The notes beneath the pieces are model-generated. The model was not told where the DNA came from, did no database searches, and saw nothing but the letters and a program-made list of their open reading frames with translations. 64,000 bases of DNA from a virus. Below are positions 28,914 to 38,405 of the stretch, piece by piece (position 1 is the first letter of the stretch; each line of letters begins with the position of its first letter). The position numbers were made by a program, and so were the translations under genes. The stretch spans positions 23,108 through 87,107 of the IMG/VR virus record IMGVR_UViG_3300049489_000444. One strand, written 5' to 3'.

Positions 28914-29403
28914 CAGAGATCACGGGGATCACCGGCTCGCCCTCAGCATCCTGGGATGCCACCTCATGGGGGCGGAACGCGTCACCCAGGACACCGCCAC
29001 TGACGACGGTGACATCCCGGAGGCGGACGGCACCCTTGACCGGGGTCTTGGGGAGGGTCTTGAGTTCCGCGTTGAAGCGCGCGGTGGCCTCTTTGACCCC
29101 GTTGACTTCCATGAGGGCCTCTTCGGCCTTCTCGTCCATGGCGGCGGCGTCACGCATGGCGCCGAGCAGGATCTCAATGGCGAGATCCCGCTGAAGCCCG
29201 CTGCGCTGGATGAACAGGCCGATGGCGGCCTTGGTCAGGCCGCGCGAGGTCGGGGTCTTCTCTGTATCGACGCCGCGGCAGCACACGCCGGACACCCGGA
29301 CCACGAAATCAAACGGGTGGTTTCCGGGGGCCACGTCGGATTCCGGCAGCTTGCTGCCGACCTTAGAGAGAACCAGCGACTCGATGGCTGAGAGGTTGAT
29401 CAT
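28906..29403 (-). CDS. Hypothetical protein, first gene of the leftward arm
   Basis: 165 aa, AAGGAG RBS, GC-rich codon usage like its neighbours. Confidence 0.75.
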   Translation of the reverse strand: MINLSAIESLVLSKVGSKLPESDVAPGNHPFDFVVRVSGVCCRGVDTEKTPTSRGLTKAAIGLFIQRSGLQRDLAIEILLGAMRDAAAMDEKAEEALMEVNGVKEATARFNAELKTLPKTPVKGAVRLRDVTVVSGGVLGDAFRPHEVASQDAEGEPVIPVISVG

Positions 29404-29465
29404 TGGGTGCTCCTTGGCGGGGTGCGGCCCGCGTCCGTTTTTCATTGATGCAGTTCGTAAGGTGG

Positions 29466-29494
29466 ATAATACATGACCTACGCCCGGCTGTCAA
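29466..29494 (-). promoter_or_regulatory. Sigma70-type promoter P4
   Basis: TTGACA-17 nt-TATTAT, close to consensus. Confidence 0.8.
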
Positions 29495-29551
29495 CTGTTT
29501 TCTGCCTAGACAGATCAACGCAGATCTATTGAGGTTTTTCGTTGAAACCGC

Positions 29552-29580
29552 TTGCGTCATGTATATCCTGATGCTATACA
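29552..29580 (+). promoter_or_regulatory. Divergent sigma70-type promoter P5 with operator variant
   Basis: TTGCGT-17 nt-TATACA. GTATATCC-TGA-TGCTATAC at 29561-29579 matches the P1 operator at 7/8 positions in each arm. Confidence 0.7.
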
Positions 29581-29619
29581 CGGGTAAGTGGTTGTTTTTC
29601 CCGGACAACAGAGGCCAAC

Positions 29620-30765
29620 ATGTCGCGCACACATCATACTGTGGAACTGACCATCCCCTATAGGACCAAACCGGACCTGCGGACCCTACGGGGACCGATC
29701 AACAAGGCGGTCAAATCGAGTGTAGACCGAGACCGCTGGCACTACGACGGTCGGCGCATCGAAATCTCCGACCTCGACGGAAGTCTAAAACTGCGCCTCC
29801 GTTTCGAGCCGACCGCGCGGGCATCGGTCGCCGACCGCGCCAAGCTCGCCCGGAGTGTCCGCCGGGCGGTCGCATCCATCGCCATAGACCAGCCTGGATC
29901 GACGGAACCTCAACCGACGGAACCTCAACCGACGGAACCTCAACCGACGGAACCTCAACCGACGGAATTGATGCCATCACCAGAGCCAGAGCCAGAGCCA
30001 GCGCCAGATATGTCACCGCCGCCGATAAACGTCGAGCGTGGCACCAATTTCGATCATATCTATGACCGTAGCGCTCAGGTCTCAATCCTCCTGTCGGCTA
30101 TCCGTGCTGCCGTCGAGTCCGATTTCCAAGTGCGATTCCATACGATTCTATTTGGCCCGCCAGGATGCGGCAAAACGGAAATTTTGCGGTCAGCTATCGC
30201 GATGCTCGGTCCATCACACGTCCTGCTCCTAGACGGACCTAGCACCACCAAAGCAGGTGCCGAGCAACTCCTGATGGGTGTGAAACGCATTCAACCGTTT
30301 GTCCTCATCGAGGAAATCGAGAAGATGCACCCAGCGCATATGCAATGGTTACTGGGGCTACTGGACGAGCGCGGCGAGGTTCGACGCACCAACGCACGGG
30401 ACGGACACGTGCAGCGCGACGCCAGGATGCTGTGCATCGCGACGGTGAACGACATGCTGAGGTTTCGTGCTCTGATGTTCGGAGCGCTAAGCAGTCGTTT
30501 CTCACATGAGATTTATTGTCCGCGCCCGGACACTGATGTCCTTAGCAAGATCGCACACCGCGAAGTCGCCCGTATCGGCGGCAACCCGTTTTGGGTTAAC
30601 GCCGCGGTCAATTATTGCGTGCACGTCGAGGGCACGTACGACCCACGCCGCGTTGTCAGCGTCTGTCTCAGCGGTCGTGATGCGCTGCTGGATGGGACCT
30701 ACCAGAGAGCCCTCCTGCATAACCGCATGCTGCAGCAACAAGCAGCCAACAACGAGAAGAAGTGA
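29620..30765 (+). CDS. AAA+ ATPase (RuvB/RarA-like core) with N-terminal domain and Pro/Glu linker
   Basis: FDHIY, HTILFGPPGCGKT Walker A, VLIEEIEK Walker B, IATVN sensor, LSSRF Arg finger. Confidence 0.8.
   Translation: MSRTHHTVELTIPYRTKPDLRTLRGPINKAVKSSVDRDRWHYDGRRIEISDLDGSLKLRLRFEPTARASVADRAKLARSVRRAVASIAIDQPGSTEPQPTEPQPTEPQPTEPQPTELMPSPEPEPEPAPDMSPPPINVERGTNFDHIYDRSAQVSILLSAIRAAVESDFQVRFHTILFGPPGCGKTEILRSAIAMLGPSHVLLLDGPSTTKAGAEQLLMGVKRIQPFVLIEEIEKMHPAHMQWLLGLLDERGEVRRTNARDGHVQRDARMLCIATVNDMLRFRALMFGALSSRFSHEIYCPRPDTDVLSKIAHREVARIGGNPFWVNAAVNYCVHVEGTYDPRRVVSVCLSGRDALLDGTYQRALLHNRMLQQQAANNEKK
29900..29967 (+). repeat. 15-bp coding tandem repeat (TEPQP)
   Basis: CGACGGAACCTCAAC in 4 perfect copies plus a partial one, followed by CCAGAG x3. 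Confidence 0.95.
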
Positions 30766-30772
30766 GGATACC

Positions 30773-31066
30773 ATGGCCAAGAAACGATCCGACGCCGCAA
30801 CAAAGCATCCAGCACTTCGTCATATCGAGGACCACGGTATCACCCGCGCTGAGGCTGCTGAGATGCTGGGCATCCCAGACAAACAGGCCTACCTGAATCT
30901 TGTCCTTGATCGATGGCGTGGTACATCCAAGGTGTACGCGCGTTTGTTTCATGAGGTGTTTGGCATCCCGTATGAGGAGTTATTTGACATCCCAGTAAGG
31001 TTGGACGCCAAAACATTCAAGCGACAACAGAACAAACAGAAGCAACAGAAACGAGGTCAAAAATGA
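30773..31066 (+). CDS. Cro/CI-type HTH transcriptional regulator
   Basis: 97 aa: HGITRAEAAEMLGI...YLNLV...FHEVFGIPYEELF with a basic tail; GAGGA RBS. Confidence 0.7.
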   Translation: MAKKRSDAATKHPALRHIEDHGITRAEAAEMLGIPDKQAYLNLVLDRWRGTSKVYARLFHEVFGIPYEELFDIPVRLDAKTFKRQQNKQKQQKRGQK

Positions 31067-31770
31067 AACCGGCCGATATCCTAGATCAAGCAGCCAACGC
31101 GCTCGAGGAACAGGCCCATGTGGCAAACTTCGGCTACGTCGAGGCGTCCAGCCTATCCCGATTGCTGAACATGGTCGGAACGCCGGAGAACAAGACTGAC
31201 CCGACGACCAACAAGAAGATGATCGATTTCAATGTTGGCCGGGCTTTCGCGATCCTGACGGCGTGGAAGGACGTTCTTGACGACAAGCCTCTGAGCGAGA
31301 AGCAGAACTGGGCTCGTAATCGGTTGCTCCTTAATGAGTTGAACGCCAAGAAGATGGGCGCCTACAAGCTCATCGGTTTCTTCCAGAACCCGCCAGAGGG
31401 CATGACCTACGACGAGGCGCGGGACCAAGGCAAGCTGCTGCCGGCATCCCGCGAAGAATCGTTCTTCGTGACCAAGCCGAAGGATATGGAGTTTGATGAG
31501 TTTGAAAACATCATTGGCGGTCTGGCTAACAAGTACGACCAATGGGCCTACCTGATCAGCAACGGCAAGGAGGTCTTCGAGGTCAGCAAGGCGGCCAGGA
31601 AATCGCTCGGTAACCGCTTGGTTATGCCGAAGATCCAACAGGCATACTCACGGATGCGCGGTTATGGAGACAAACCGTTCGTGTTCGCTGGTGTTGTGAC
31701 ACCTGACTCTATCGGGCAGATGCGGTATTTCCAGCATATCGGCCTGAATTGGATCCCGAGGATCAAATGA
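31063..31770 (+). CDS. SAM-lyase (T3 SAMase)/DUF3293-like protein, paralog 1
   Basis: Motifs in order: FAILTAWK, QNWARNRLL, LIGFFQ, REESFFV, KYDQWAYL. Confidence 0.55.
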   Translation: MKPADILDQAANALEEQAHVANFGYVEASSLSRLLNMVGTPENKTDPTTNKKMIDFNVGRAFAILTAWKDVLDDKPLSEKQNWARNRLLLNELNAKKMGAYKLIGFFQNPPEGMTYDEARDQGKLLPASREESFFVTKPKDMEFDEFENIIGGLANKYDQWAYLISNGKEVFEVSKAARKSLGNRLVMPKIQQAYSRMRGYGDKPFVFAGVVTPDSIGQMRYFQHIGLNWIPRIK

Positions 31771-32807
31771 GCAGACTCTACAGGTCAGCCCAAGCGCTGC
31801 TGAATCTCGTCGCGGGGGCCATGAAGTTCCGCGATTTCCGCTCACACGGAGGTACATCGAAGATGTGGATCGACCCGAAGAACAGGCCGATCCCTCTTGA
31901 TGGTATGCACTACGAATGGCTGCGTGAGAATGCACCGTTCGTCAGGAAAGCCTACAACCTCCCAGACATGCCGGACTGGGGTTACGACGACGAGGGTAAG
32001 GCCCGCCTGTGGGCTCTCAGCAATGGATTCACAAGAGTCAACTTCAAAAACAATTGGGTGACATTCGAGACCAACGAACGCTTCTGGACCAAGAAACGCC
32101 AGGACGTCATTTCCATGCTTGTCGCCGAGAACTCTGATGACATCGATAATATCGTCGTCAACGTCCTCAACGACTCAGGAAAGTTGATCAAGGACGGCCG
32201 GGCCGACGTCAGCGGCCTAGATGAGGCGGTCGCCAAAGTCGAATCGATTCCGGTTATCCCCGCGAAACAAACAAGATTGATCGCCGAGGTTCTCAGGAGG
32301 GTCCGTGTTGAGGCGTCGAGCCTGACTCGCATCCTGCGCCTCATCGGTAAGCCAGACCAAGACGGTATCGAGGTCCTACGTCCGTTCGGGATTGTCACGG
32401 CGTTCCAGACAGGCGTTTCTTTGGAGGTGAACAACCAGCGCCTAAACCAGATGAGCGAGAAGCTCGGCCGGTCAGGCGTTAAGACGTATCGCCTGCAGGG
32501 CAACTGGTTAGAGCAGGGACTATCGCCCGATGAGGCCAAGAAACCAGTCAAGGTCCGAGAAGACGCGTTGTTCTGTGTAGTCCAATCAGATGACGATATC
32601 GACTTTGAGGCGTTCTCGCAGGCCATCATCCGTCAGGCGGACCGATTCAATCAGGCGGCTGTCATCCTGAGTGATGGAGCGAACATTTGGCTGCGCTTCA
32701 AGGACGGCCATACAAAGGATTTCGGAGACACCGCGGACGTCGCTACACTCCAACAGGCCTATCAGCAGATGCGTGCCCAGCAAGAACACACGTTCACGTT
32801 CGAGTGA
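31767..32807 (+). CDS. Two-domain protein with C-terminal SAM-lyase-like domain, paralog 2
   Basis: FGIVTAFQ, EVNNQRLNQM, LQGNWLE, REDALF, RFNQAAVIL; clearly paralogous to 31063..31770. Confidence 0.55.
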   Translation: MSRLYRSAQALLNLVAGAMKFRDFRSHGGTSKMWIDPKNRPIPLDGMHYEWLRENAPFVRKAYNLPDMPDWGYDDEGKARLWALSNGFTRVNFKNNWVTFETNERFWTKKRQDVISMLVAENSDDIDNIVVNVLNDSGKLIKDGRADVSGLDEAVAKVESIPVIPAKQTRLIAEVLRRVRVEASSLTRILRLIGKPDQDGIEVLRPFGIVTAFQTGVSLEVNNQRLNQMSEKLGRSGVKTYRLQGNWLEQGLSPDEAKKPVKVREDALFCVVQSDDDIDFEAFSQAIIRQADRFNQAAVILSDGANIWLRFKDGHTKDFGDTADVATLQQAYQQMRAQQEHTFTFE

Positions 32808-32811
32808 CGAG

Positions 32812-33573
32812 ATGCACGATACTGCCGCCCTCCTCGACCGTGTCGCGATGGTGATCGAGGCTGATGATGATGATAATGATCCCATCACACTCGACACACC
32901 TGACGGTATCCTGCACGCCGTTCAGTTGTGTGATGATGGGTACCTCAGCGATGGCGAGTGCGCACAGCTTGATGCGGCGCTAAAAACCTATCCGCCGCTG
33001 AAGGTTCGCGCTCTCGACAGAACCGTTGATGATGTCCGTTTCGTCGGAGACAAAATTGTTGAAGGCGATCGCGACACATTCACAGCCTACACGCCCGAGG
33101 AATGGATGAGGTCCACTACAGCGGAGAACATCATCGAGGAGATCGCCGGGAAGATCGAGGAGCGCATCGATCGCGATTACCACGAATCTCCAGGCAAGCT
33201 CTGGCACGCCACCGACGCAGAAAACATCGAATCAATTATGCGTGACGGCCTAAGGGCCGAAAATCAATCACGTGGGCTGACCAACAGGTCGGTCGGGATG
33301 GCAATCTTTACGACCGACGACCGCAGCCTCGTCAGCGATGCCTACGGTGACACCGTGTTGGAGATCGACCTCTCCGGGATGCAGCGTGACGGCATCAGGT
33401 GGGCAGTCTCCCAGGAACCATCTGTCTCCCTGTACGAGGCCGAGAGTGCCTTGGCACATATGCTCGATCTTGATGACTACTCACCAGACAATACCAGCGA
33501 TGGGGCCGATGACCCGTCGACCATCATCCTGTACGTCGCGGTGGTCCCGCCGAAGTACCTACGGGTCGTGTAA
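32812..33573 (+). CDS. ADP-ribosyltransferase-fold protein (Tpt1/KptA C-terminal-like)
   Basis: LWHATDAENIESIMRDGL, AIFTT, VLEID and terminal VPPKYL. Confidence 0.65.
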   Translation: MHDTAALLDRVAMVIEADDDDNDPITLDTPDGILHAVQLCDDGYLSDGECAQLDAALKTYPPLKVRALDRTVDDVRFVGDKIVEGDRDTFTAYTPEEWMRSTTAENIIEEIAGKIEERIDRDYHESPGKLWHATDAENIESIMRDGLRAENQSRGLTNRSVGMAIFTTDDRSLVSDAYGDTVLEIDLSGMQRDGIRWAVSQEPSVSLYEAESALAHMLDLDDYSPDNTSDGADDPSTIILYVAVVPPKYLRVV

Positions 33574-33596
33574 ACAGGCCAAGGTGAGGCCGATCA

Positions 33597-34121
33597 ATGG
33601 ATGAACCGCAGCCGGGCTGGTGGGTCATCATCGAAACGAACTCGTACGCTGGTAATTTCGAGCGAACTATGGGTGCTTGGTGCACCGGGGCCTACGGCGA
33701 GACGCACGGAAAATTCGAGTCTGCCGACTGCTTATCCGAATTAGAGAACACCGGATGGGCTCATATCCCAGACAATGTCGGGTACTGCTGTGGCGGCGAA
33801 CGCGCAATGCGGTGGGCCTTACCAAAGAACCAGAAATCCACAGACGGACTCGACTCGATCTACACAGGAGTCGCGATCCCGTTCAACAAACGACCCAGCC
33901 GCAGTGATGTTCGATTCATGTTGTGGCGTGCGGCCGATTATGCAGAAAAAGTCCGCTCAGGTTACTTCTCCGGTAAGCGCACCATATCTTGTTACGCCCA
34001 GGAAACCCTGCAGGTGACCGGTATACAGGTCAGGCATTTACGTCTAAGTGAGACCATTACAGATCGGATCAAGGTACATGGCGCTGCAGCTAAGTCATCA
34101 AAGAAGAATCCACGCTCCTGA
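33597..34121 (+). CDS. Phage hypothetical protein
   Basis: 174 aa, IIETNSYAGNFER..AWCTG pattern; last gene of the + strand operon. Confidence 0.65.
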   Translation: MDEPQPGWWVIIETNSYAGNFERTMGAWCTGAYGETHGKFESADCLSELENTGWAHIPDNVGYCCGGERAMRWALPKNQKSTDGLDSIYTGVAIPFNKRPSRSDVRFMLWRAADYAEKVRSGYFSGKRTISCYAQETLQVTGIQVRHLRLSETITDRIKVHGAAAKSSKKNPRS

Positions 34122-34156
34122 TTCGTCTTTAATTCTGACGCGTGGGTAATCTTCCA

Positions 34157-34369
34157 TCAGGAATCTTCTCTGGATAACGCCTCCAGCGCCTCCTCCAATA
34201 AATCCCGCTTCATCGAGGATCTGTTGATTTGGAATTGAAGTTCTTTGAGTACAGCTTCCTTCGTAACACCTTGACGCGCGTGCCACGACCAGTGGCCCTG
34301 CTTCCGCATGACGACAACCTCTGGAGCAACGTCCACCATCACATCGGCCAAGTCCACTGTCGCGCTCAT
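34157..34369 (-). CDS. Hypothetical protein
   Basis: 70 aa with an AGGAG upstream. Confidence 0.55.
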   Translation of the reverse strand: MSATVDLADVMVDVAPEVVVMRKQGHWSWHARQGVTKEAVLKELQFQINRSSMKRDLLEEALEALSREDS

Positions 34370-34427
34370 TCATCTCGCCCTTCTCCTAGCCCATACTGAC
34401 CGGTCTCATGCAAATAATAGATCGATC

Positions 34428-34910
34428 TCAGTCTTTGTTCTCAATAGTCTTCTTCAGACTAGCGGCGGCGCGTTCGATTGCGTCCGCGGGCGGTTGGATG
34501 GTCACGATGATACCTGTCGGCTTCTGATAGTGCCGCATGAGCGAATCTTTCAGACTCAGACTTGCAATCCAATACGGTCCCGGATGCTTTGGACGCACGT
34601 AAAGGATACCGTCCTGCAGTTCCTCCTCGTAGGTTCCGGGGAACAGCCGAGTAGGCTCATGGGCCTGCAGGGGATACCGTGGATGGAGGATCAGGACCCC
34701 GCGGTTGGTTCCAGGGAACTGGTCTTTGACGACGTCAACAAGCCAGAACTCGTCATGCTTGGGGAACTCGAGATGCCCCTGCATGGACTGCGACCACGCG
34801 CGGTCAACGATCGCGACCTTCCCGAATGTCCGACTCAGAATGGCGTTCTGTTTGTCGGCTTTCAGGTTGAACTGGAACTTCGCGACCGCCGTACAGACCC
34901 CATCACGCAA
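34428..34910 (-). CDS. Hypothetical protein
   Basis: 3' part of ORF 34428..35090; a TTG start next to the upstream stop avoids a 180-bp overlap. Confidence 0.55.
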   Translation of the reverse strand: MRDGVCTAVAKFQFNLKADKQNAILSRTFGKVAIVDRAWSQSMQGHLEFPKHDEFWLVDVVKDQFPGTNRGVLILHPRYPLQAHEPTRLFPGTYEEELQDGILYVRPKHPGPYWIASLSLKDSLMRHYQKPTGIIVTIQPPADAIERAAASLKKTIENKD

Positions 34911-34911
34911 A

Positions 34912-35910
34912 TTAGCCCGCGAAGGGCTGACGGTATGTGGAGTGTCCGACACTAGCGACAAGTGTCCGCTTGTTGGCTGCGGTTTGTATGGTTGCTTGGA
35001 CACGGAATCTCTTTCCAGGCGTGAATGTGCCATTGGTAATCCTAAGTCGCTTGCGGCGAAGTTGCTGTCCTGATGAGGATTGAAGGACATAGTCTTGGGT
35101 GAAATCGCTGGTCAGCATGCTGGGCAGTACCGTTCCTGAGCCCCAGGTTGCGGAGACATTCCCGTCGGAATCCTCGATGTCCAACGTGATAATCTGACCG
35201 GTCTCTTGCACGTAATCGAACGTGATATTGCGCGGCTGTTCACGTCCGACGATGAACGCCCAGCGAAACCGGTCAATCGTTGGTGTGTTACCGTTGTTGA
35301 CGATCTGCATGATGTGGCCGAACGATGTATGATCGACCGTCTCGACCACAGGAGCCAGTCCGGCCTCGGTGTGTTTGTAGATCATCGACGTGAATGGCGG
35401 CGTCAAGAACGTACCATCAGCGGGACTCGAGAAGGCCTCAATTCTGGCTTTCGGGGCCGGAACAATCATCGTATCTGCGAGCCCGACTCCGCCACCCGGA
35501 TACAGCACGTAACCGAGCACAATACCATCATTGATGTTCTGATTCTGCAGGAGACCGTAATCTAGAGTCAGCGTTGCGGCGTTTCCGCCGAACACGTCAG
35601 AATCCGTGTGCCTGTATACGACCGTATAGTTGGCGGCGGCACTCGTGATAGGAACGACAAGCTGTTTGGGTTCGTCCTCGTGCAGGAGGACTCCTGCCCG
35701 CATCGTGCCTTGTTGGGTGGTACGTGGACTATCAAGAGATATCCAAACAGGCTGAATGACGATCCTGTCAGGCTGTGTTGGCGGTGTTACGGCCGACACG
35801 CCAATCTCACCGCCACTCAGGACGGTCTTGCCTGTCAGGCCGCTGAACATCTCTTTAAATGTGCTCGCTGTGGCAAAGATGCCGAAGTCGAAGTAACGGT
35901 GCTGAGTCAC
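34912..35910 (-). CDS. Putative virion structural protein
   Basis: 332 aa, beta-rich, in the baseplate/fibre operon. Confidence 0.55.
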   Translation of the reverse strand: MTQHRYFDFGIFATASTFKEMFSGLTGKTVLSGGEIGVSAVTPPTQPDRIVIQPVWISLDSPRTTQQGTMRAGVLLHEDEPKQLVVPITSAAANYTVVYRHTDSDVFGGNAATLTLDYGLLQNQNINDGIVLGYVLYPGGGVGLADTMIVPAPKARIEAFSSPADGTFLTPPFTSMIYKHTEAGLAPVVETVDHTSFGHIMQIVNNGNTPTIDRFRWAFIVGREQPRNITFDYVQETGQIITLDIEDSDGNVSATWGSGTVLPSMLTSDFTQDYVLQSSSGQQLRRKRLRITNGTFTPGKRFRVQATIQTAANKRTLVASVGHSTYRQPFAG

Positions 35911-35918
35911 GGATTACC

Positions 35919-38405
35919 TCACCAGAGAGCGGCAAGCATGAAACCGGAAAGTTTCTTGCCAGCCATCCTGAAACGTATTTTGAAATTTCCAGCCAGCCCT
36001 GTGATCTGACGCACCCTGGCGTTTCCGCTGATGGCCGGCATTGTTGTCCAGGCACCAGCCGTGGTTGGTGCGCTGTAGAGTTGGTACTCCACCACCGCAT
36101 CACCACCAGGGCTCTCAAGGCTTGTTGGTAGATCGCCAAAGACAACCATGAATAGCTTGCTCTGGTTGAATGGCAATGGGAATGCCTGGGAGTAGTACCA
36201 TTCACGGGCACCATCGAGGGTACCCTCAGAGTTGAATGTTGCGGTGAGGTCCTCGTCGGTGAAAACAGAATCAAGGGCCGTATTGTGACGGTCACGCCGT
36301 GATAGGATGTTGTCCTGATGTTTGACGTTTTTGAATGACTCGACGCCGATAATCTTTGTGTTTGTTGCCCCACCAAATCCGCCCATCATGGTGAGCATGA
36401 TGCGGAAGTTGCCGACCAGATGATCGACATGCTCCTGCTCTTGTGTGGCGTTCACGACATCACGCAAGTTACGGCTTATCGGACGAGTGTCATGGATGCG
36501 TGCAACGGACTGGCCGTTCCAGTTGAACGTACAGACGGGCAGCGCGTCGTCCAGCGCTGGTGTCGTTGTAGGTTCGATGTCGGCCCACAACTGGATTAGC
36601 GCATTGGCTCCGGCCGCTACCGGGGTCGGCTTTACCTTCCATGTGTCGAGGACAGAAAACACCGTATTGCTGATCTGGAATGCGTGCGTGGGCTCACCAT
36701 TCACAATTGTGGTCTGTTCCCAAGCGATCTGCTTTGGTGCTGCCGACCCGGCAGTTCCGTGAAAGATGAGAGTCTCAACGGCTATCGCGCCAGTCAGGTC
36801 CTTCCCCGTCAATTCAATCTGGACCTCCATATTCGAAGGCGGAGATAGCGGGGCATTCCACAGAGCAACCCTGATACGGGCAGGCCCGTACATAGGAAAT
36901 TGCGGGGTCTGGACGGCTGTGCCGACGCCGTTGGCGTCATTGATGAGTTTCGCGCAGCTTACGACCTGCGGGCCTTCGATGAATTGCTGCGAAGCATCTA
37001 GCCACAGGCGATAGTTCTTCGGAATCGGTCCGTTCGTCCCTACGGCATATTGCGTTGTTGGTAGAGCCTCGTAGATCTTCCCACCAGTGACGTACTCCTC
37101 TGAGGGGGTCGGATTCTGGAATTGGATGATGTCGCCGGCCACCAGCATCACATCATGGGGCAGCGCCGGAGGACGAAGACAATCAGAGTCCGTGTAGTAA
37201 ACGGTGAACCCATATGTGCTATTGAACCCTTCGTCGGTCGCGTTCTGTCGATAAAGCGCAAGGATATTCGTTCCAGGGATGAGGTCGGCCGCCAAACTGT
37301 AGGCGGTCAGGCCTGTGTCGGGTACCGATCCGCCAGAACCGTCATCTTTGTTCCCGCGAATGCCCAGGATACGGGTCGGGTATGAGTTGAGGTAGACATA
37401 GCGACGACCAACAGTCCCGGTCACCAGACCTGTCGCGTCCGTCAAGACCCGCACTCCCGGAGTGCCGTCCACGTATTCTTCGCAGATCTTCCCAGGACAA
37501 CCCGGAACATTAAGATCACGTGACAGAACAATTCCGTGCTGCAACATCTGCTGATAGAGTGTTAAGGCCCCACCACCTAGATCATTGTACGAAAGTTTGT
37601 GTGGAACCGTATCGGCGCCGGTTCCGCTCATCTGACGGTGTTCCTGATCGACCGCAGAGAACCATGGCCGTACATACTGATTGACCGCATTGGTCATATC
37701 GATGTTCAGGATTGTCGGTTGAGCCGCGTACGTGGCCGCATCCGGGTTCGGGACAACCTTGACGATAGCCAGCACCACACAATCATTGAGACGTTGAACC
37801 GAGAATTTCGTCAGGTCCTGAAAATCCTGAATCGTCACGACCTTGACCATCTGAGGTTTGTTGAGGTCAGGGTCGGACAGCGTCTCAGGTGTCGATTGTG
37901 GTAACGCCGGATCAATCGGGAGTGCCGTTACGCGACGCACGGCCTCGACGGTGTTGAAGCTTGTGACGGTGTTGGTCTCCGGGTCATCGACCACAAGATA
38001 TTCCAACAGAACGATATTCTCGATACCCTGTATGGCGGGGTCGCTCGATACAACGGCGTTATTGGCAAGGTTGATCCCGAAAAGCTGTTCTGGAATAATG
38101 ATGATGTTTCCGGCTTTGGTTACTGCGATCCCTGGCGTGATATCCAGCGTCAGCGGGTTACCGGCATTGGGCTGAACCGTCAACGGGCGACCAGATGCTG
38201 GCGTTGCCGAGTTTGGGTTCAATTCATCCACAACACCATGGGACGGGCCTTGTTCGCGGTACTGACCCATGAGGAGTTGCAGGCGTGCGCGTTGTTCGCC
38301 CGCAAACACCTGATCGAACAGGTATTCGAGGTCACGAACCCCAGGCGGAGCATCAAAGTTCAGTCCCGGAAGTTTTGAATTTGGTGTGATGAACGCGACA
38401 GCCAT
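35919..38405 (-). CDS. Putative baseplate/virion structural protein
   Basis: 828 aa, beta-rich (LDITPGIAVTKAG), in the structural operon. Confidence 0.6.
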   Translation of the reverse strand: MAVAFITPNSKLPGLNFDAPPGVRDLEYLFDQVFAGEQRARLQLLMGQYREQGPSHGVVDELNPNSATPASGRPLTVQPNAGNPLTLDITPGIAVTKAGNIIIIPEQLFGINLANNAVVSSDPAIQGIENIVLLEYLVVDDPETNTVTSFNTVEAVRRVTALPIDPALPQSTPETLSDPDLNKPQMVKVVTIQDFQDLTKFSVQRLNDCVVLAIVKVVPNPDAATYAAQPTILNIDMTNAVNQYVRPWFSAVDQEHRQMSGTGADTVPHKLSYNDLGGGALTLYQQMLQHGIVLSRDLNVPGCPGKICEEYVDGTPGVRVLTDATGLVTGTVGRRYVYLNSYPTRILGIRGNKDDGSGGSVPDTGLTAYSLAADLIPGTNILALYRQNATDEGFNSTYGFTVYYTDSDCLRPPALPHDVMLVAGDIIQFQNPTPSEEYVTGGKIYEALPTTQYAVGTNGPIPKNYRLWLDASQQFIEGPQVVSCAKLINDANGVGTAVQTPQFPMYGPARIRVALWNAPLSPPSNMEVQIELTGKDLTGAIAVETLIFHGTAGSAAPKQIAWEQTTIVNGEPTHAFQISNTVFSVLDTWKVKPTPVAAGANALIQLWADIEPTTTPALDDALPVCTFNWNGQSVARIHDTRPISRNLRDVVNATQEQEHVDHLVGNFRIMLTMMGGFGGATNTKIIGVESFKNVKHQDNILSRRDRHNTALDSVFTDEDLTATFNSEGTLDGAREWYYSQAFPLPFNQSKLFMVVFGDLPTSLESPGGDAVVEYQLYSAPTTAGAWTTMPAISGNARVRQITGLAGNFKIRFRMAGKKLSGFMLAALW

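What the first reader, a model, noticed from the sequence alone, without database searches (positions are those of the whole stretch)
31063..32807. Tandem paralogs with the T3 SAMase (SAM lyase) motif series
Seen: both proteins carry the same ordered motifs: ILTAWK/IVTAFQ, QN..RN/VN..RL, GFFQ/GNWLE, REESF/REDAL, YDQ/FNQ. From memory, T3 SAMase has VSAFR, VNMSRH, GCYRE, EEKT, WEQD in the same order. Established: phage SAM lyases deplete SAM, and T3 SAMase also binds MetK, defeating type I RM and BREX. Here the GxY tyrosine is F/W and the acidic residue after Q is W/A. Inference: divergent enzymes, a hetero-oligomer, or non-catalytic SAM/nucleotide sponges. Paralog 2 also has an extra N-terminal domain of about 175 aa.
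Basis: partly seen in the sequence, partly recalled or inferred. Interest (0 to 1): 0.7.

Follow-up and report, generated by a model that had tools for sequence, protein, structure and literature searches.

The report
Paired SAM-lyase genes plus unknown domain
Two overlapping phage genes encode two old, diverged copies of the T3-type enzyme that destroys the methyl donor SAM, one of them fused to a conserved domain with no recognisable relative, and the three parts stay together in related phages, which suggests an untested multi-part counter-defence device.

Summary
Gene A (31063-31770, 235 aa) and gene X-B (31767-32807, 346 aa) overlap by ATGA. They are paralogs (27% identity, E 2e-15).

The family call holds:
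- B hits Pfam PF23780 at 27.8 bits, against a cut-off of 28.
- 71 of 111 relatives hit PF23780.
- A clade profile finds only T3 SAMase below E 0.1 in the PDB.
- The AlphaFold model of X-B (pLDDT 93) is closest to T3 SAMase (Z 9.8).

Both paralogs keep the Gly, Glu and Gln that are strictly conserved in proven SAM lyases. The "odd" Trp in place of Tyr is the norm in this clade (80 of 89).

New points:
- A-type and B-type are old sister clades, and every system with two lyase modules in the tree has one of each (4 of 4).
- The N-terminal domain X has no hit in Pfam or the PDB by sequence, one PHROG hit among 26 relatives, and no clear structural match.
- X occurs with the lyase modules in permuted fusions: B-A-X, B-A|X, A|X-B, S-X and X-S.
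- Both module types also sit in giant polyvalent proteins.

The most likely role is SAM-destroying counter-defence, but the activity, substrate and complex are all untested. This scan has noted paired SAM-lyase genes before, in other phages.

The parts
29542..29569 (+). Promoter-like site upstream of the plus-strand operon. Weak: 9 of 12 consensus positions.
   Evidence: Only 3 sites were found against 2.8 expected in shuffles, so this is not significant on its own.
29620..30765 (+). AAA+ ATPase, first gene of the operon. Its N-terminal part holds TEPQP repeats.
   Evidence: Pfam AAA_5 E 4e-8 and AAA E 7.4e-8. It is 65% identical over 228 residues to the syntenic gene in related locus L002.
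30770..31066 (+). Small helix-turn-helix protein (98 aa). Its stop overlaps the start of gene A.
   Evidence: ORF list and ATGA overlap. The L002 counterpart hits HTH_3 and HTH_28 and is 31% identical.
31063..31770 (+). Gene A: A-type SAM-lyase-like protein of 235 aa. It has an N-terminal helix region, the barrel module and a 25-aa C-terminal tail.
   Evidence: Paralog of B. It sits in the A-type clade (SH-aLRT 96). G105, E131, S133 and Q160 are kept. It has no Pfam hit of its own and was not modelled.
31767..32261 (+). Domain X: residues 1-165 of the X-B protein. An alpha/beta domain of unknown function.
   Evidence: AlphaFold pLDDT 91.3 when folded alone. No Pfam hit, one PHROG hit in 26 relatives, and no significant PDB sequence hit. 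Best structural Z is 5.3. 38 of 159 relatives scanned carry it.
32262..32807 (+). B-type SAM-lyase module: linker helix 166-190 plus barrel 194-346 of the X-B protein, with the stop codon.
   Evidence: PF23780 E 2.7e-6, 27.8 bits. T3 SAMase 7ock_L matches at Z 9.8, rmsd 3.5, 123 aligned, and Foldseek gives probability 1.00. It sits in the B clade (SH-aLRT 99).
32812..33573 (+). ADP-ribosyltransferase-like gene (253 aa), 5 nt after the stop of X-B. Possibly part of the same cassette.
   Evidence: Weak hits only: PARP E 1.8e-4, Tpt1/KptA E 2.7e-4, DarT E 0.0027. All are below curated cut-offs. A possible counterpart lies inside fusion protein P0164.
33597..34121 (+). Last plus-strand gene, 174 aa, function unknown.
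   Evidence: phrog_23621 (unknown function) E 1.3e-10. No Pfam hit.

Best explanation
Genes A and X-B are the core of a phage counter-defence cassette. It consists of two anciently diverged T3-type S-adenosylmethionine lyase modules (A-type and B-type) and an unnamed alpha/beta domain X. They are translated as a coupled unit from a plus-strand operon: AAA+ ATPase, HTH, A, X-B, ART-like gene, unknown gene.

Inferred mechanism: each lyase module folds as a T3-like beta-barrel. Its conserved Gly, Glu (in an E-x-S motif) and Gln hold SAM, or a SAM derivative, in the conformation that lets its own carboxylate attack the gamma carbon. The products are methylthioadenosine and homoserine lactone. Loss of SAM would blunt SAM-dependent host defences such as type I/III restriction and BREX.

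A, B and X are inferred to act together, probably as one complex, because nature repeatedly fuses them in different orders. X would then be an accessory part for targeting, regulation or a second activity.

What is shown: paralogy, family membership, the fold of B, conserved residues, and module linkage across relatives. What is inferred: catalysis, substrate, complex formation, anti-defence role and timing of expression.
For: Family:
- PF23780 hits B at E 2.7e-6.
- 71 of 111 clade members scanned hit PF23780 (best E 1.3e-18). 86 of the 111 carry a lyase module.
- A profile of 82 clade members finds T3 SAMase (E 0.0074) as the only PDB sequence below E 0.1. It aligns AFR, N..R, GxW to GCY, the Glu motif and QD to QD.

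Fold:
- The X-B model has pLDDT 93.3.
- VIA-align gives T3 SAMase Z 9.8, well above Svi3-3 at Z 6.4 and all other chains at 6.3 or less.
- Foldseek's top PDB hits are T3 SAMase chains (probability 1.00) and Svi3-3 (0.94).
- 25 BFVD hits reach E 1e-3 or better, including phage proteins named S-adenosyl-L-methionine hydrolase.

Residues:
- Proven SAM lyases strictly conserve only Gly56, Glu69 and Gln104 in Svi3-3 numbering (PMC7877911, passages). In T3 the matching residues are E68 and Q94 (bioRxiv 10.1101/2023.02.27.530186, passages).
- In the A/B clade these are G 25/25, E 24/25 and Q 25/25.

Linkage:
- ATGA overlaps join HTH to A and A to X-B.
- Natural fusions exist: B-A-X (P0006, P0007), B-insert-A-X (P0164), S-X (4 proteins) and X-S (5 proteins).
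- In 2 of 2 true metagenome loci fetched, X lies directly after a lyase gene.
- L002 is a syntenic relative (MoxR 50%, AAA 65%, DNA polymerase 50% identity) with the layout B-A | X.
- A-type and B-type are separate supported clades, and 4 of 4 two-module systems in the tree have one of each.

Counter-defence setting: relatives of both modules sit in giant multi-domain proteins alongside SprT, PARP-like, 2H/Acb1-like, GNAT and polyA-polymerase domains.
Against: - No activity data exist for any member of this clade.
- A has no Pfam hit of its own and was not modelled. B is 0.2 bits under Pfam's cut-off.
- Secondary active-site positions differ from the proven enzymes. The Tyr is Phe in A and Trp in B. 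The acid after Gln is Trp in A and Ala in B. The Ser of E-x-S is Ala in B and in 6 of 10 B-type modules.
- T3 SAMase works as a monomeric barrel, so the fold does not demand an A-B complex. No multimer model could be run.
- The phage fragment itself encodes a SAM-dependent N6/N4 DNA methyltransferase, which sits awkwardly with wholesale SAM destruction.
- No host, expression or timing data are available. The promoter match is weak.
- The record is only about 26% complete by CheckV, so other SAM-related genes may be missing from view.
Confidence: 0.55

Rival explanations
1. One or both modules are lyases for a SAM-derived molecule and not for SAM itself. An example is the type III CRISPR signal SAM-AMP. 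The cassette would then be an anti-signalling device of the anti-CRISPR type, and the two paralogs would cover two substrates.
For: The same fold family includes SAM-AMP lyases. [quoted passage not shown] An old, conserved A/B pair with different secondary pocket residues fits two specificities.
Against: The B model is much closer to T3 SAMase (Z 9.8) than to the trimeric PII-like Svi3-3 (Z 6.4). No SAM-AMP lyase chain appears in the rows printed, though that absence is weak evidence. The residues that bind the AMP part were not compared.
Confidence: 0.2
2. The modules are non-catalytic binders: SAM or nucleoside sponges, or protein-binding scaffolds that inhibit a host enzyme, as T3 SAMase inhibits MetK.
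For: The Tyr, the acid after Gln and (in B) the Ser are all replaced. A catalytically dead T3 SAMase keeps part of its anti-BREX effect through MetK binding.
Against: Gly, Glu and Gln are kept in 25/25, 24/25 and 25/25 A/B-clade modules, even though related phages share only 29-34% identity in these genes. In Svi3-3, the Y58F and E105Q mutants lose only 5-fold and 3-fold activity. The MetK-binding N-terminal tail of T3 is conserved only among close relatives of T3.
Confidence: 0.1
3. The proteins are packed into the phage head and injected with the DNA. Each would carry a leader ending in (V/I)-E-A that the head protease cuts.
For: V-E-A-S-S-L occurs in A (residues 26-31) and in the X-B linker. 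I-E-A occurs near the N-terminus of the ART-like protein. T4 packs and injects its ADP-ribosyltransferase Alt (recalled, not from a call).
Against: The Glu before A-S-S-L is present in only 5 of 12 aligned relatives; the others have Q, L, K or C. In the model the motif lies inside a continuous helix at 166-190. For B the 'leader' would be the whole folded X domain. The genes sit in a plus-strand operon with an HTH regulator, apart from the structural genes. No head protease or its cleavage sites were examined.
Confidence: 0.1

Closest known systems
Bacteriophage T3 SAM lyase (SAMase, gp0.3; PDB 7OCK, 8BB1; Pfam PF23780)
   Same: It is the best structural match to the B module (Z 9.8, 123 residues aligned; Foldseek probability 1.00). 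It shares the same ordered motifs (AFR, N..R, G-x-aromatic-x-E, Glu motif, Q-D in the wider clade). Both models show nine beta strands with helices packed outside. Both are phage-encoded.
   Different: Sequence identity is only 11-16%. The window proteins add an N-terminal helix region (ASSLSRLL motif), a third helix (QAYS motif) and a PFVFE/PFVFAG end. The T3 N-terminal tail that binds MetK is not evident. The Tyr is Trp or Phe, and the Asp after Gln is lost. T3 has one gene; here there are two old paralogs plus domain X.
Svi3-3 SAM lyase (PDB 6ZM9, 6ZNB)
   Same: Same superfamily. Gly56, Glu69-x-Ser71 and Gln104 correspond to the clade's G, E-x-S and Q. It is the second-best structural hit (Z 6.4; Foldseek probability 0.94).
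   Different: Svi3-3 is a PII-like trimer with active sites between subunits. The B model resembles the monomeric T3 barrel more closely.
[quoted passage not shown]
   Same: [quoted passage not shown]
   Different: By the position of its catalytic Glu158, its N-terminal part is much shorter than X (inference). It is predicted to be trimeric and PII-like. No sequence relation to X could be tested because its sequence was not at hand. tblastn of X-B found nothing in the phage collection.
Polyvalent proteins of phages and conjugative elements (Iyer et al. 2017, PMC5512222)
   Same: Relatives of both the lyase module and X occur as modules of 800-2400-residue proteins, alongside SprT, PARP-like, 2H phosphoesterase, GNAT, polyA-polymerase and DUF7178 domains.
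   Different: Here the modules are separate small genes. The main text of that paper contains none of the words SAMase, adenosylmethionine, SAM hydrolase, AdoMet or DUF3293. Its supplements were not seen.

Membership tests
SAM lyase family (Pfam PF23780 S-AdoMet_lyase; T3 SAMase type) | Sequence match to the family model at or above the curated cut-off (28 bits) | tested here: inconclusive
   B scores 27.8 bits, E 2.7e-6, covering model positions 2-122 of 133. A has no hit at E<=1. 71 of 111 clade members hit at E<=0.001. Relatives in giant proteins score 36-69 bits. The database's precomputed domains list PF23780.2 for the X-B protein.
SAM lyase family (Pfam PF23780 S-AdoMet_lyase; T3 SAMase type) | T3-type fold: beta-barrel of about nine strands with outer helices | tested here: met
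   B module only. The model has pLDDT 93.3 and nine strands between residues 194 and 345. 7ock_L matches at Z 9.8, rmsd 3.5, 123 aligned; the next hit is Z 6.4. Foldseek probability is 1.00. A was not modelled; its fold is inferred from E 2e-15 paralogy.
SAM lyase family (Pfam PF23780 S-AdoMet_lyase; T3 SAMase type) | The three residues strictly conserved in proven enzymes: Gly56, Glu69 and Gln104 of Svi3-3 (E68 and Q94 of T3) | tested here: met
   A has G105, E131 and Q160. B has G245, E265 and Q296 in P0005 numbering. Clade-wide counts are 86/87 for each; within the A/B clade they are 25/25, 24/25 and 25/25. Equivalence rests on the HMMER alignment to T3. The register at the Glu is uncertain by one residue: the printed alignment pairs the clade Glu with T3 E67, while the E-x-S/T pattern suggests E68.
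SAM lyase family (Pfam PF23780 S-AdoMet_lyase; T3 SAMase type) | Semi-conserved Tyr58 and an acidic residue after the Gln (Glu105 in Svi3-3, Asp95 in T3) | tested here: not met
   A has F107 and W161; B has W247 and A297. The clade norm is W (80/89) and D (64/87). In Svi3-3, the Y58F and E105Q mutants keep a fifth and a third of the activity, so these residues are not essential.
SAM lyase family (Pfam PF23780 S-AdoMet_lyase; T3 SAMase type) | Cleaves SAM to methylthioadenosine and homoserine lactone | not testable with these tools
   This needs an enzyme assay.
SAM lyase family (Pfam PF23780 S-AdoMet_lyase; T3 SAMase type) | Binds and inhibits host MetK through the N-terminal tail (specific to T3 and close relatives) | not testable with these tools
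   The binding residues are reported as conserved only in phages of closely related hosts. Here the N-terminal regions are helical. The host is unknown.
Trimeric PII-like SAM lyase / SAM-AMP lyase (Svi3-3, C. botulinum SAM-AMP lyase, AcrIIIB4) | PII-like trimer with active sites between subunits; for SAM-AMP lyases, residues that bind the AMP moiety | tested here: inconclusive
   Svi3-3 matches at Z 6.4, tied with unrelated ferredoxin-like folds at Z 6.3 or less. The oligomer state cannot be predicted with the single-chain tool. The AMP-binding residues were not compared.
Module of polyvalent proteins (phage and conjugative-element conflict proteins) | The same domain occurs as one of many modules in very long proteins alongside known conflict domains | tested here: met
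   Lyase module: P0024 (1665 aa; SprT, PARP-like), P0038 (1518 aa; two lyase modules plus 2H/LigT/Acb1-like), P0093 (1591 aa; GNAT, two lyase modules, polyA polymerase). Domain X: P0152 (2374 aa; GNAT, DUF7178) and P0149 (823 aa; DUF7178).

The most novel reading that the evidence does not exclude
A-type lyase, B-type lyase and domain X (perhaps also the ART-like protein) form one obligate multi-subunit machine. In it X is a new kind of enzymatic or target-binding domain that couples SAM cleavage to a second action on the host, for example blocking SAM resynthesis or acting on a defence protein. The two lyase paralogs are specialised subunits: A keeps the full E-x-S site, B has a remodelled site. 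This would be a new class of compound anti-defence device, spread both as small-gene cassettes and as modules of polyvalent proteins.
Probability: 0.25. Interest if true: 0.75.

Novelty: new variant of a known kind. Interest (0 to 1): 0.55.

Why it matters
SAM lyases are a classic phage answer to restriction and BREX, but only a handful have been studied, all as single small proteins. This locus points to three new things:
- A large, uncharacterised clade of T3-type lyases. The two-module lyase-plus-X profile found 1194 representative proteins at E<=0.001, a count that includes X-only proteins.
- A conserved pair of old paralogs within that clade.
- An unnamed 170-residue domain that evolution keeps welding to them in different orders.

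If the three parts work together, this offers a testable route to a new accessory activity in phage counter-defence. It would also assign a function to a domain found in many metagenomic phage proteins. If they do not work together, this is simply another divergent SAM lyase pair.

Tried and rejected
- **Curated collections.** Megablast of 29000-36000 against the phage collection, tblastn of B and of A against phages and tblastn of X-B against plasmids all found nothing.
- **Single-sequence PDB searches.** Searches with A and B gave only chance hits. The 12-row profile A1 gave T3 SAMase at a non-significant E of 1.6.
- **Is X a degenerate lyase module?** Rejected. hhalign of the X alignment against a lyase-only alignment gave probability 0.2%. 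An earlier hhalign is void, because alignment A1 contained X-bearing rows.
- **X against known families.**
  - Pfam: 0 of 26 members with a meaningful hit.
  - PHROGs: 1 of 26, phrog_6432 of unknown function.
  - PDB by sequence: best E 1.7.
  - ESM Atlas: no usable hit.
  - Foldseek against PDB: best E 0.027, probability 0.23.
  - VIA-align wide and second look: best Z 5.3 (RlmO middle domain), then gelsolin/cofilin and phosphopentomutase at Z 4-5. All are below the level the tool notes as chance.
- **PADLOC.** No hit for A or X-B.
- **Further loci.**
  - Viral contigs gave nothing with X-B, A or the 5-row X alignment A5.
  - P0021 gave one spurious locus, L003, with no module by HMM.
  - Genome contigs gave nothing with P0009 or P0022.
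  - So only 2 true related loci (L001, L002) were examined.
- **Protease-leader idea.** Judged unlikely; see the rival explanations.
- **ART-like insert in P0164.** BLASTP against the window's ART-like protein gave only E 0.092 over 29 residues. Pfam found nothing there. The Atlas gave ART-type clusters at 0.88, under its own 0.9 line. This is kept as a lead only.
- **Literature.**
  - 'SAM lyase' + 'polyvalent': 5 papers, none describing lyase modules in polyvalent proteins, going by the listing plus passages of PMC12839542.
  - 'SAMase / SAM lyase / anti-defence / homologs' from 2023: 15 of 145 papers listed, judged by listing only.
  - I found no description of paired SAM lyases or of domain X, but these searches are narrow and X has no name to search for.
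  - I did not ask for supplements of any paper. The supplementary alignments of PMC12255297 and PMC7877911 could refine the residue equivalences.
- **Not done.** No sequencing-run search.
Full report
**What is there.**
- The window is the last 64 kb of a single 87,107-bp virus record. CheckV rates the record about 26% complete and it has no end repeats. It is therefore a fragment of a probably much larger phage.
- The phage's family-A DNA polymerase is at most about 25% identical to anything in the phage collection. The best matches are jumbo Erwinia and Dickeya phages.
- Nearly all long ORFs are on the minus strand. A short plus-strand run holds six genes:
  - an AAA+ ATPase (29620-30765),
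  - a small HTH protein (30770-31066),
  - gene A (31063-31770),
  - gene X-B (31767-32807),
  - an ADP-ribosyltransferase-like gene (32812-33573),
  - a 174-aa unknown (33597-34121).
- HTH/A and A/X-B overlap as ATGA, each behind a GAGG-type ribosome-binding site. These genes are therefore likely translated as a coupled unit.
- The only plus-strand promoter-like site is weak: 9 of 12 positions, with site counts no higher than in shuffles.

**The observation.**
- A and the C-terminal half of B are true paralogs: 27% identity over 194 columns, E 2e-15.
- The real start of B is most likely ATG 31767 (346 aa). This is also the form held in the protein database (P0005).

**Family.**
- B hits Pfam PF23780 (S-AdoMet_lyase) at E 2.7e-6 and 27.8 bits, 0.2 bits under the curated cut-off. 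A has no hit of its own.
- A two-module profile (lyase module plus X) was searched against 1.84 billion representative proteins. It found 1194 proteins at E<=0.001, 423 at E<=1e-10 and 55 at E<=1e-30.
- Of 111 of these relatives scanned, 86 carry a lyase module and 25 are X-only. 71 of the 111 hit PF23780, best E 1.3e-18.
- A profile of 82 lyase-only members finds T3 SAMase (7OCK/8BB1) as the only PDB sequence below E 0.1 (E 0.0074). The alignment runs through all the motifs.
- The AlphaFold2 model of X-B is confident: pLDDT 93.3, pTM 0.67.
- Against 48,161 PDB representatives the best match is T3 SAMase: Z 9.8, rmsd 3.5, 123 residues, model residues 199-346. It stands clear of Svi3-3 (Z 6.4) and everything else at Z 6.3 or less.
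- Foldseek gives the same order, with T3 SAMase at probability 1.00 and Svi3-3 at 0.94.
- Foldseek also finds 25 viral predicted structures at E<=1e-3, including proteins named S-adenosyl-L-methionine hydrolase.
- So the lyase modules belong to the SAM lyase family and are of the T3 type. For A this rests on paralogy and clade membership, not on a model.

**Catalytic residues.**
- Proven SAM lyases strictly conserve only three residues: Gly56, Glu69 and Gln104 of Svi3-3. Tyr58 and Glu105 are semi-conserved. E69Q nearly abolishes activity, while Y58F and E105Q lose 5-fold and 3-fold (PMC7877911, passages).
- In T3 the key residues are E68 and Q94 (bioRxiv 10.1101/2023.02.27.530186, passages).
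- In the clade, the matching Gly, Glu and Gln are each present in 86 of 87 rows.
- In the 25 modules of the A/B clade they are present in 25, 24 and 25 rows.
- The aromatic residue two positions after the Gly is Trp in 80 of 89 rows, Phe in 6 and Tyr in 2. B's Trp is therefore the norm and A's Phe is a minority state.
- The residue after the Gln is Asp in 64 of 87 rows, as in T3 (Q94-D95). It is Trp in A and Ala in B.
- The Glu sits in an E-x-S motif like Svi3-3's Glu69-x-Ser71. All 15 A-type modules keep the Ser. 6 of 10 B-type modules, including the window's, have Ala.
- The printed HMMER alignment pairs the clade Glu with T3 E67 and not E68. I read this as a one-residue register slip, and that reading is my inference.
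- Taken together, both paralogs look able to bind and probably to cleave a SAM-like substrate. B has the more remodelled pocket.

**An old pair.**
- I built a maximum-likelihood tree of 68 lyase modules: 43 chosen systems plus the first 25 of the remaining 97 modules.
- It places B-type modules in one clade (10 rows, SH-aLRT 99). A-type modules fall in two neighbouring clades (7 rows, support 96; 8 rows, support 93).
- All three clades lie inside a 25-row group. That group has support 93, but its internal order is unresolved.
- Every system in the tree that has two modules has one A-type and one B-type. This holds for the window, P0006, P0007 and L002, so 4 of 4.
- Other tandem pairs arose by separate duplications: P0074, P0049, and the giant proteins P0038, P0093 and P0122.
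- Doubling of this module therefore recurs, in line with earlier notes of this scan on other phages (not checked by me).

**Domain X.**
- Residues 1-165 of X-B form a confident alpha/beta domain: pLDDT 91.3 and pTM 0.86 when folded alone.
- No known family or fold matched it. The searches and their scores are listed under Tried and rejected.
- In 26 aligned members, R80, G87, R90 and K157 are invariant. K32, W34, P37, H48, N92, G96, E101, N122, I126 and P162 are nearly so.
- That many conserved charged residues suggests a binding or active site, perhaps for an anionic ligand. This is inference only.

**Linkage of A, B and X.** I scanned 159 stored relatives with the two-module profile.
- 38 of the 159 carry X. 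27 of them show no lyase module in the same chain, and 2 of those 27 are giant proteins.
- 11 of the 38 are fused to lyase modules: 5 as X-S, 4 as S-X and 2 as S-S-X.
- The arrangements seen are:
  - A | X-B (this window),
  - X-B (P0008),
  - B-A-X in one chain (P0006, P0007),
  - B-insert-A-X (P0164),
  - B-X (P0009, P0010),
  - X-A (P0011).
- In both true metagenome loci fetched, a lyase gene is followed directly by a stand-alone X gene (L001, L002).
- L002 comes from an 85-kb contig that is a syntenic relative of this phage. Identities are MoxR ATPase 50%, DUF6744 40%, AAA+ ATPase 65%, HTH 31% and DNA polymerase 50%. The lyase and X modules share only 29-34%.
- In L002 the layout is a B-A fusion (440 aa) followed by X (192 aa).
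- Two related phages therefore carry the same three modules in circularly permuted order and with different fusion points. This is the usual signature of parts that work together.
- It does not prove a complex. T3 SAMase acts as a monomeric barrel, and no multimer prediction was possible.

**Setting.**
- Relatives of the lyase module and of X are also modules of proteins of 800-2400 residues. Their partner domains are SprT-like, PARP-like, 2H/LigT/Acb1-like, GNAT, polyA-polymerase and DUF7178. This is the make-up of polyvalent conflict proteins of phages and conjugative elements.
- The window's next gene is ART-like, with weak PARP, Tpt1 and DarT hits.
- The 130-residue insert of P0164 may be the same kind of domain. 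The evidence for that is weak: BLASTP E 0.092 at the H-x-T...DGLR stretch, and Atlas neighbours of DarT/PARP and Arr type at 0.88.
- All of this fits a counter-defence or host-takeover island.

**Points against, and open points.**
- No member of this clade has been assayed.
- The phage fragment encodes its own N6/N4 DNA methyltransferase (G000 17.8-18.4 kb). No MetK was found in the 26% of the genome in hand. Unrestrained SAM destruction would therefore cost the phage something, unless timing or substrate differs.
I think this unlikely, for the reasons given under the rival explanations. I did not examine the head genes.

**Verdict.**
- The locus is a new variant of a known kind: a conserved A-type/B-type pair of T3-like SAM lyase modules tied to an unnamed domain X.
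- The most likely mechanism is SAM cleavage for counter-defence by a joint A/B/X unit (confidence 0.55).
- The main rival is a different SAM-derived substrate for one or both modules.
- This scan has already noted paired or tandem SAM-lyase genes in other phages. The new elements here are domain X, its permuted fusions and the old A/B split.

Noticed in passing
window 32812-33573 (+); protein P0164 residues ~197-335: The gene right after X-B is ADP-ribosyltransferase-like, with weak PARP, Tpt1 and DarT hits. The fusion protein P0164 (B-insert-A-X) has a 130-residue insert with a similar W..H.T...I..DGLR stretch, and its nearest Atlas clusters are of ART type (score 0.88). The ART-like gene may therefore belong to the same cassette.
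   Followed up: partly
window 29620-30765 (+) and L002 4235-5338: The AAA+ ATPase that heads the operon is the best-conserved gene of the arm (65% identity to the relative L002). It carries a run of TEPQP repeats and a PEPEPEP stretch in its N-terminal part. Its role next to the lyase cassette is unknown.
   Followed up: partly
window 31072-31107, 32262-32310, 32818-32860: A (ADILDQAANALE), the X-B linker (TRLIAEVLRRV) and the ART-like protein (TAALLDRVAMVIE) each carry a similar amphipathic helix. Stand-alone X proteins end with the same kind of helix (..LIAECLRRF). It could be a shared docking or assembly element.
   Followed up: partly
window 31720-31767 (C-terminal tail of A) and 31824-31880 (start of X): MAFFT aligned A's C-terminal tail (MRYFQHIGLNWIP) with the first conserved stretch of X (FRDFRSHGGTSKMWIDP). 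The fusion P0006 has both. Whether this is a shared strand motif or chance is unknown.
   Followed up: no
G000:C1:17831-18415 (-), upstream of the window: The phage fragment encodes an N6/N4 DNA methyltransferase (PF01555, 67.9 and 45.4 bits). A SAM-using enzyme thus sits in the same genome as two SAM-lyase-like genes. No MetK was found in the fragment.
   Followed up: partly
whole record G000 (87,107 bp): CheckV completeness is about 26% and there are no end repeats. The DNA polymerase is at most about 25% identical to known phages, with the best hits being 260-kb Erwinia and Dickeya jumbo phages. This is probably a fragment of a large, very divergent phage, and the 85-kb contig behind L002 is a relative.
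   Followed up: partly
proteins P0038, P0093, P0122: Giant proteins carry two SAM-lyase modules in tandem, next to a 2H/LigT/Acb1-like phosphoesterase or a polyA-polymerase/CCA-type nucleotidyltransferase and a GNAT domain. This combination was not found in the literature searched.
   Followed up: partly
window 33597-34121 (+): The last gene of the plus-strand run (174 aa) matches phrog_23621 (unknown function) at E 1.3e-10 over its first 50 residues only.
   Followed up: no
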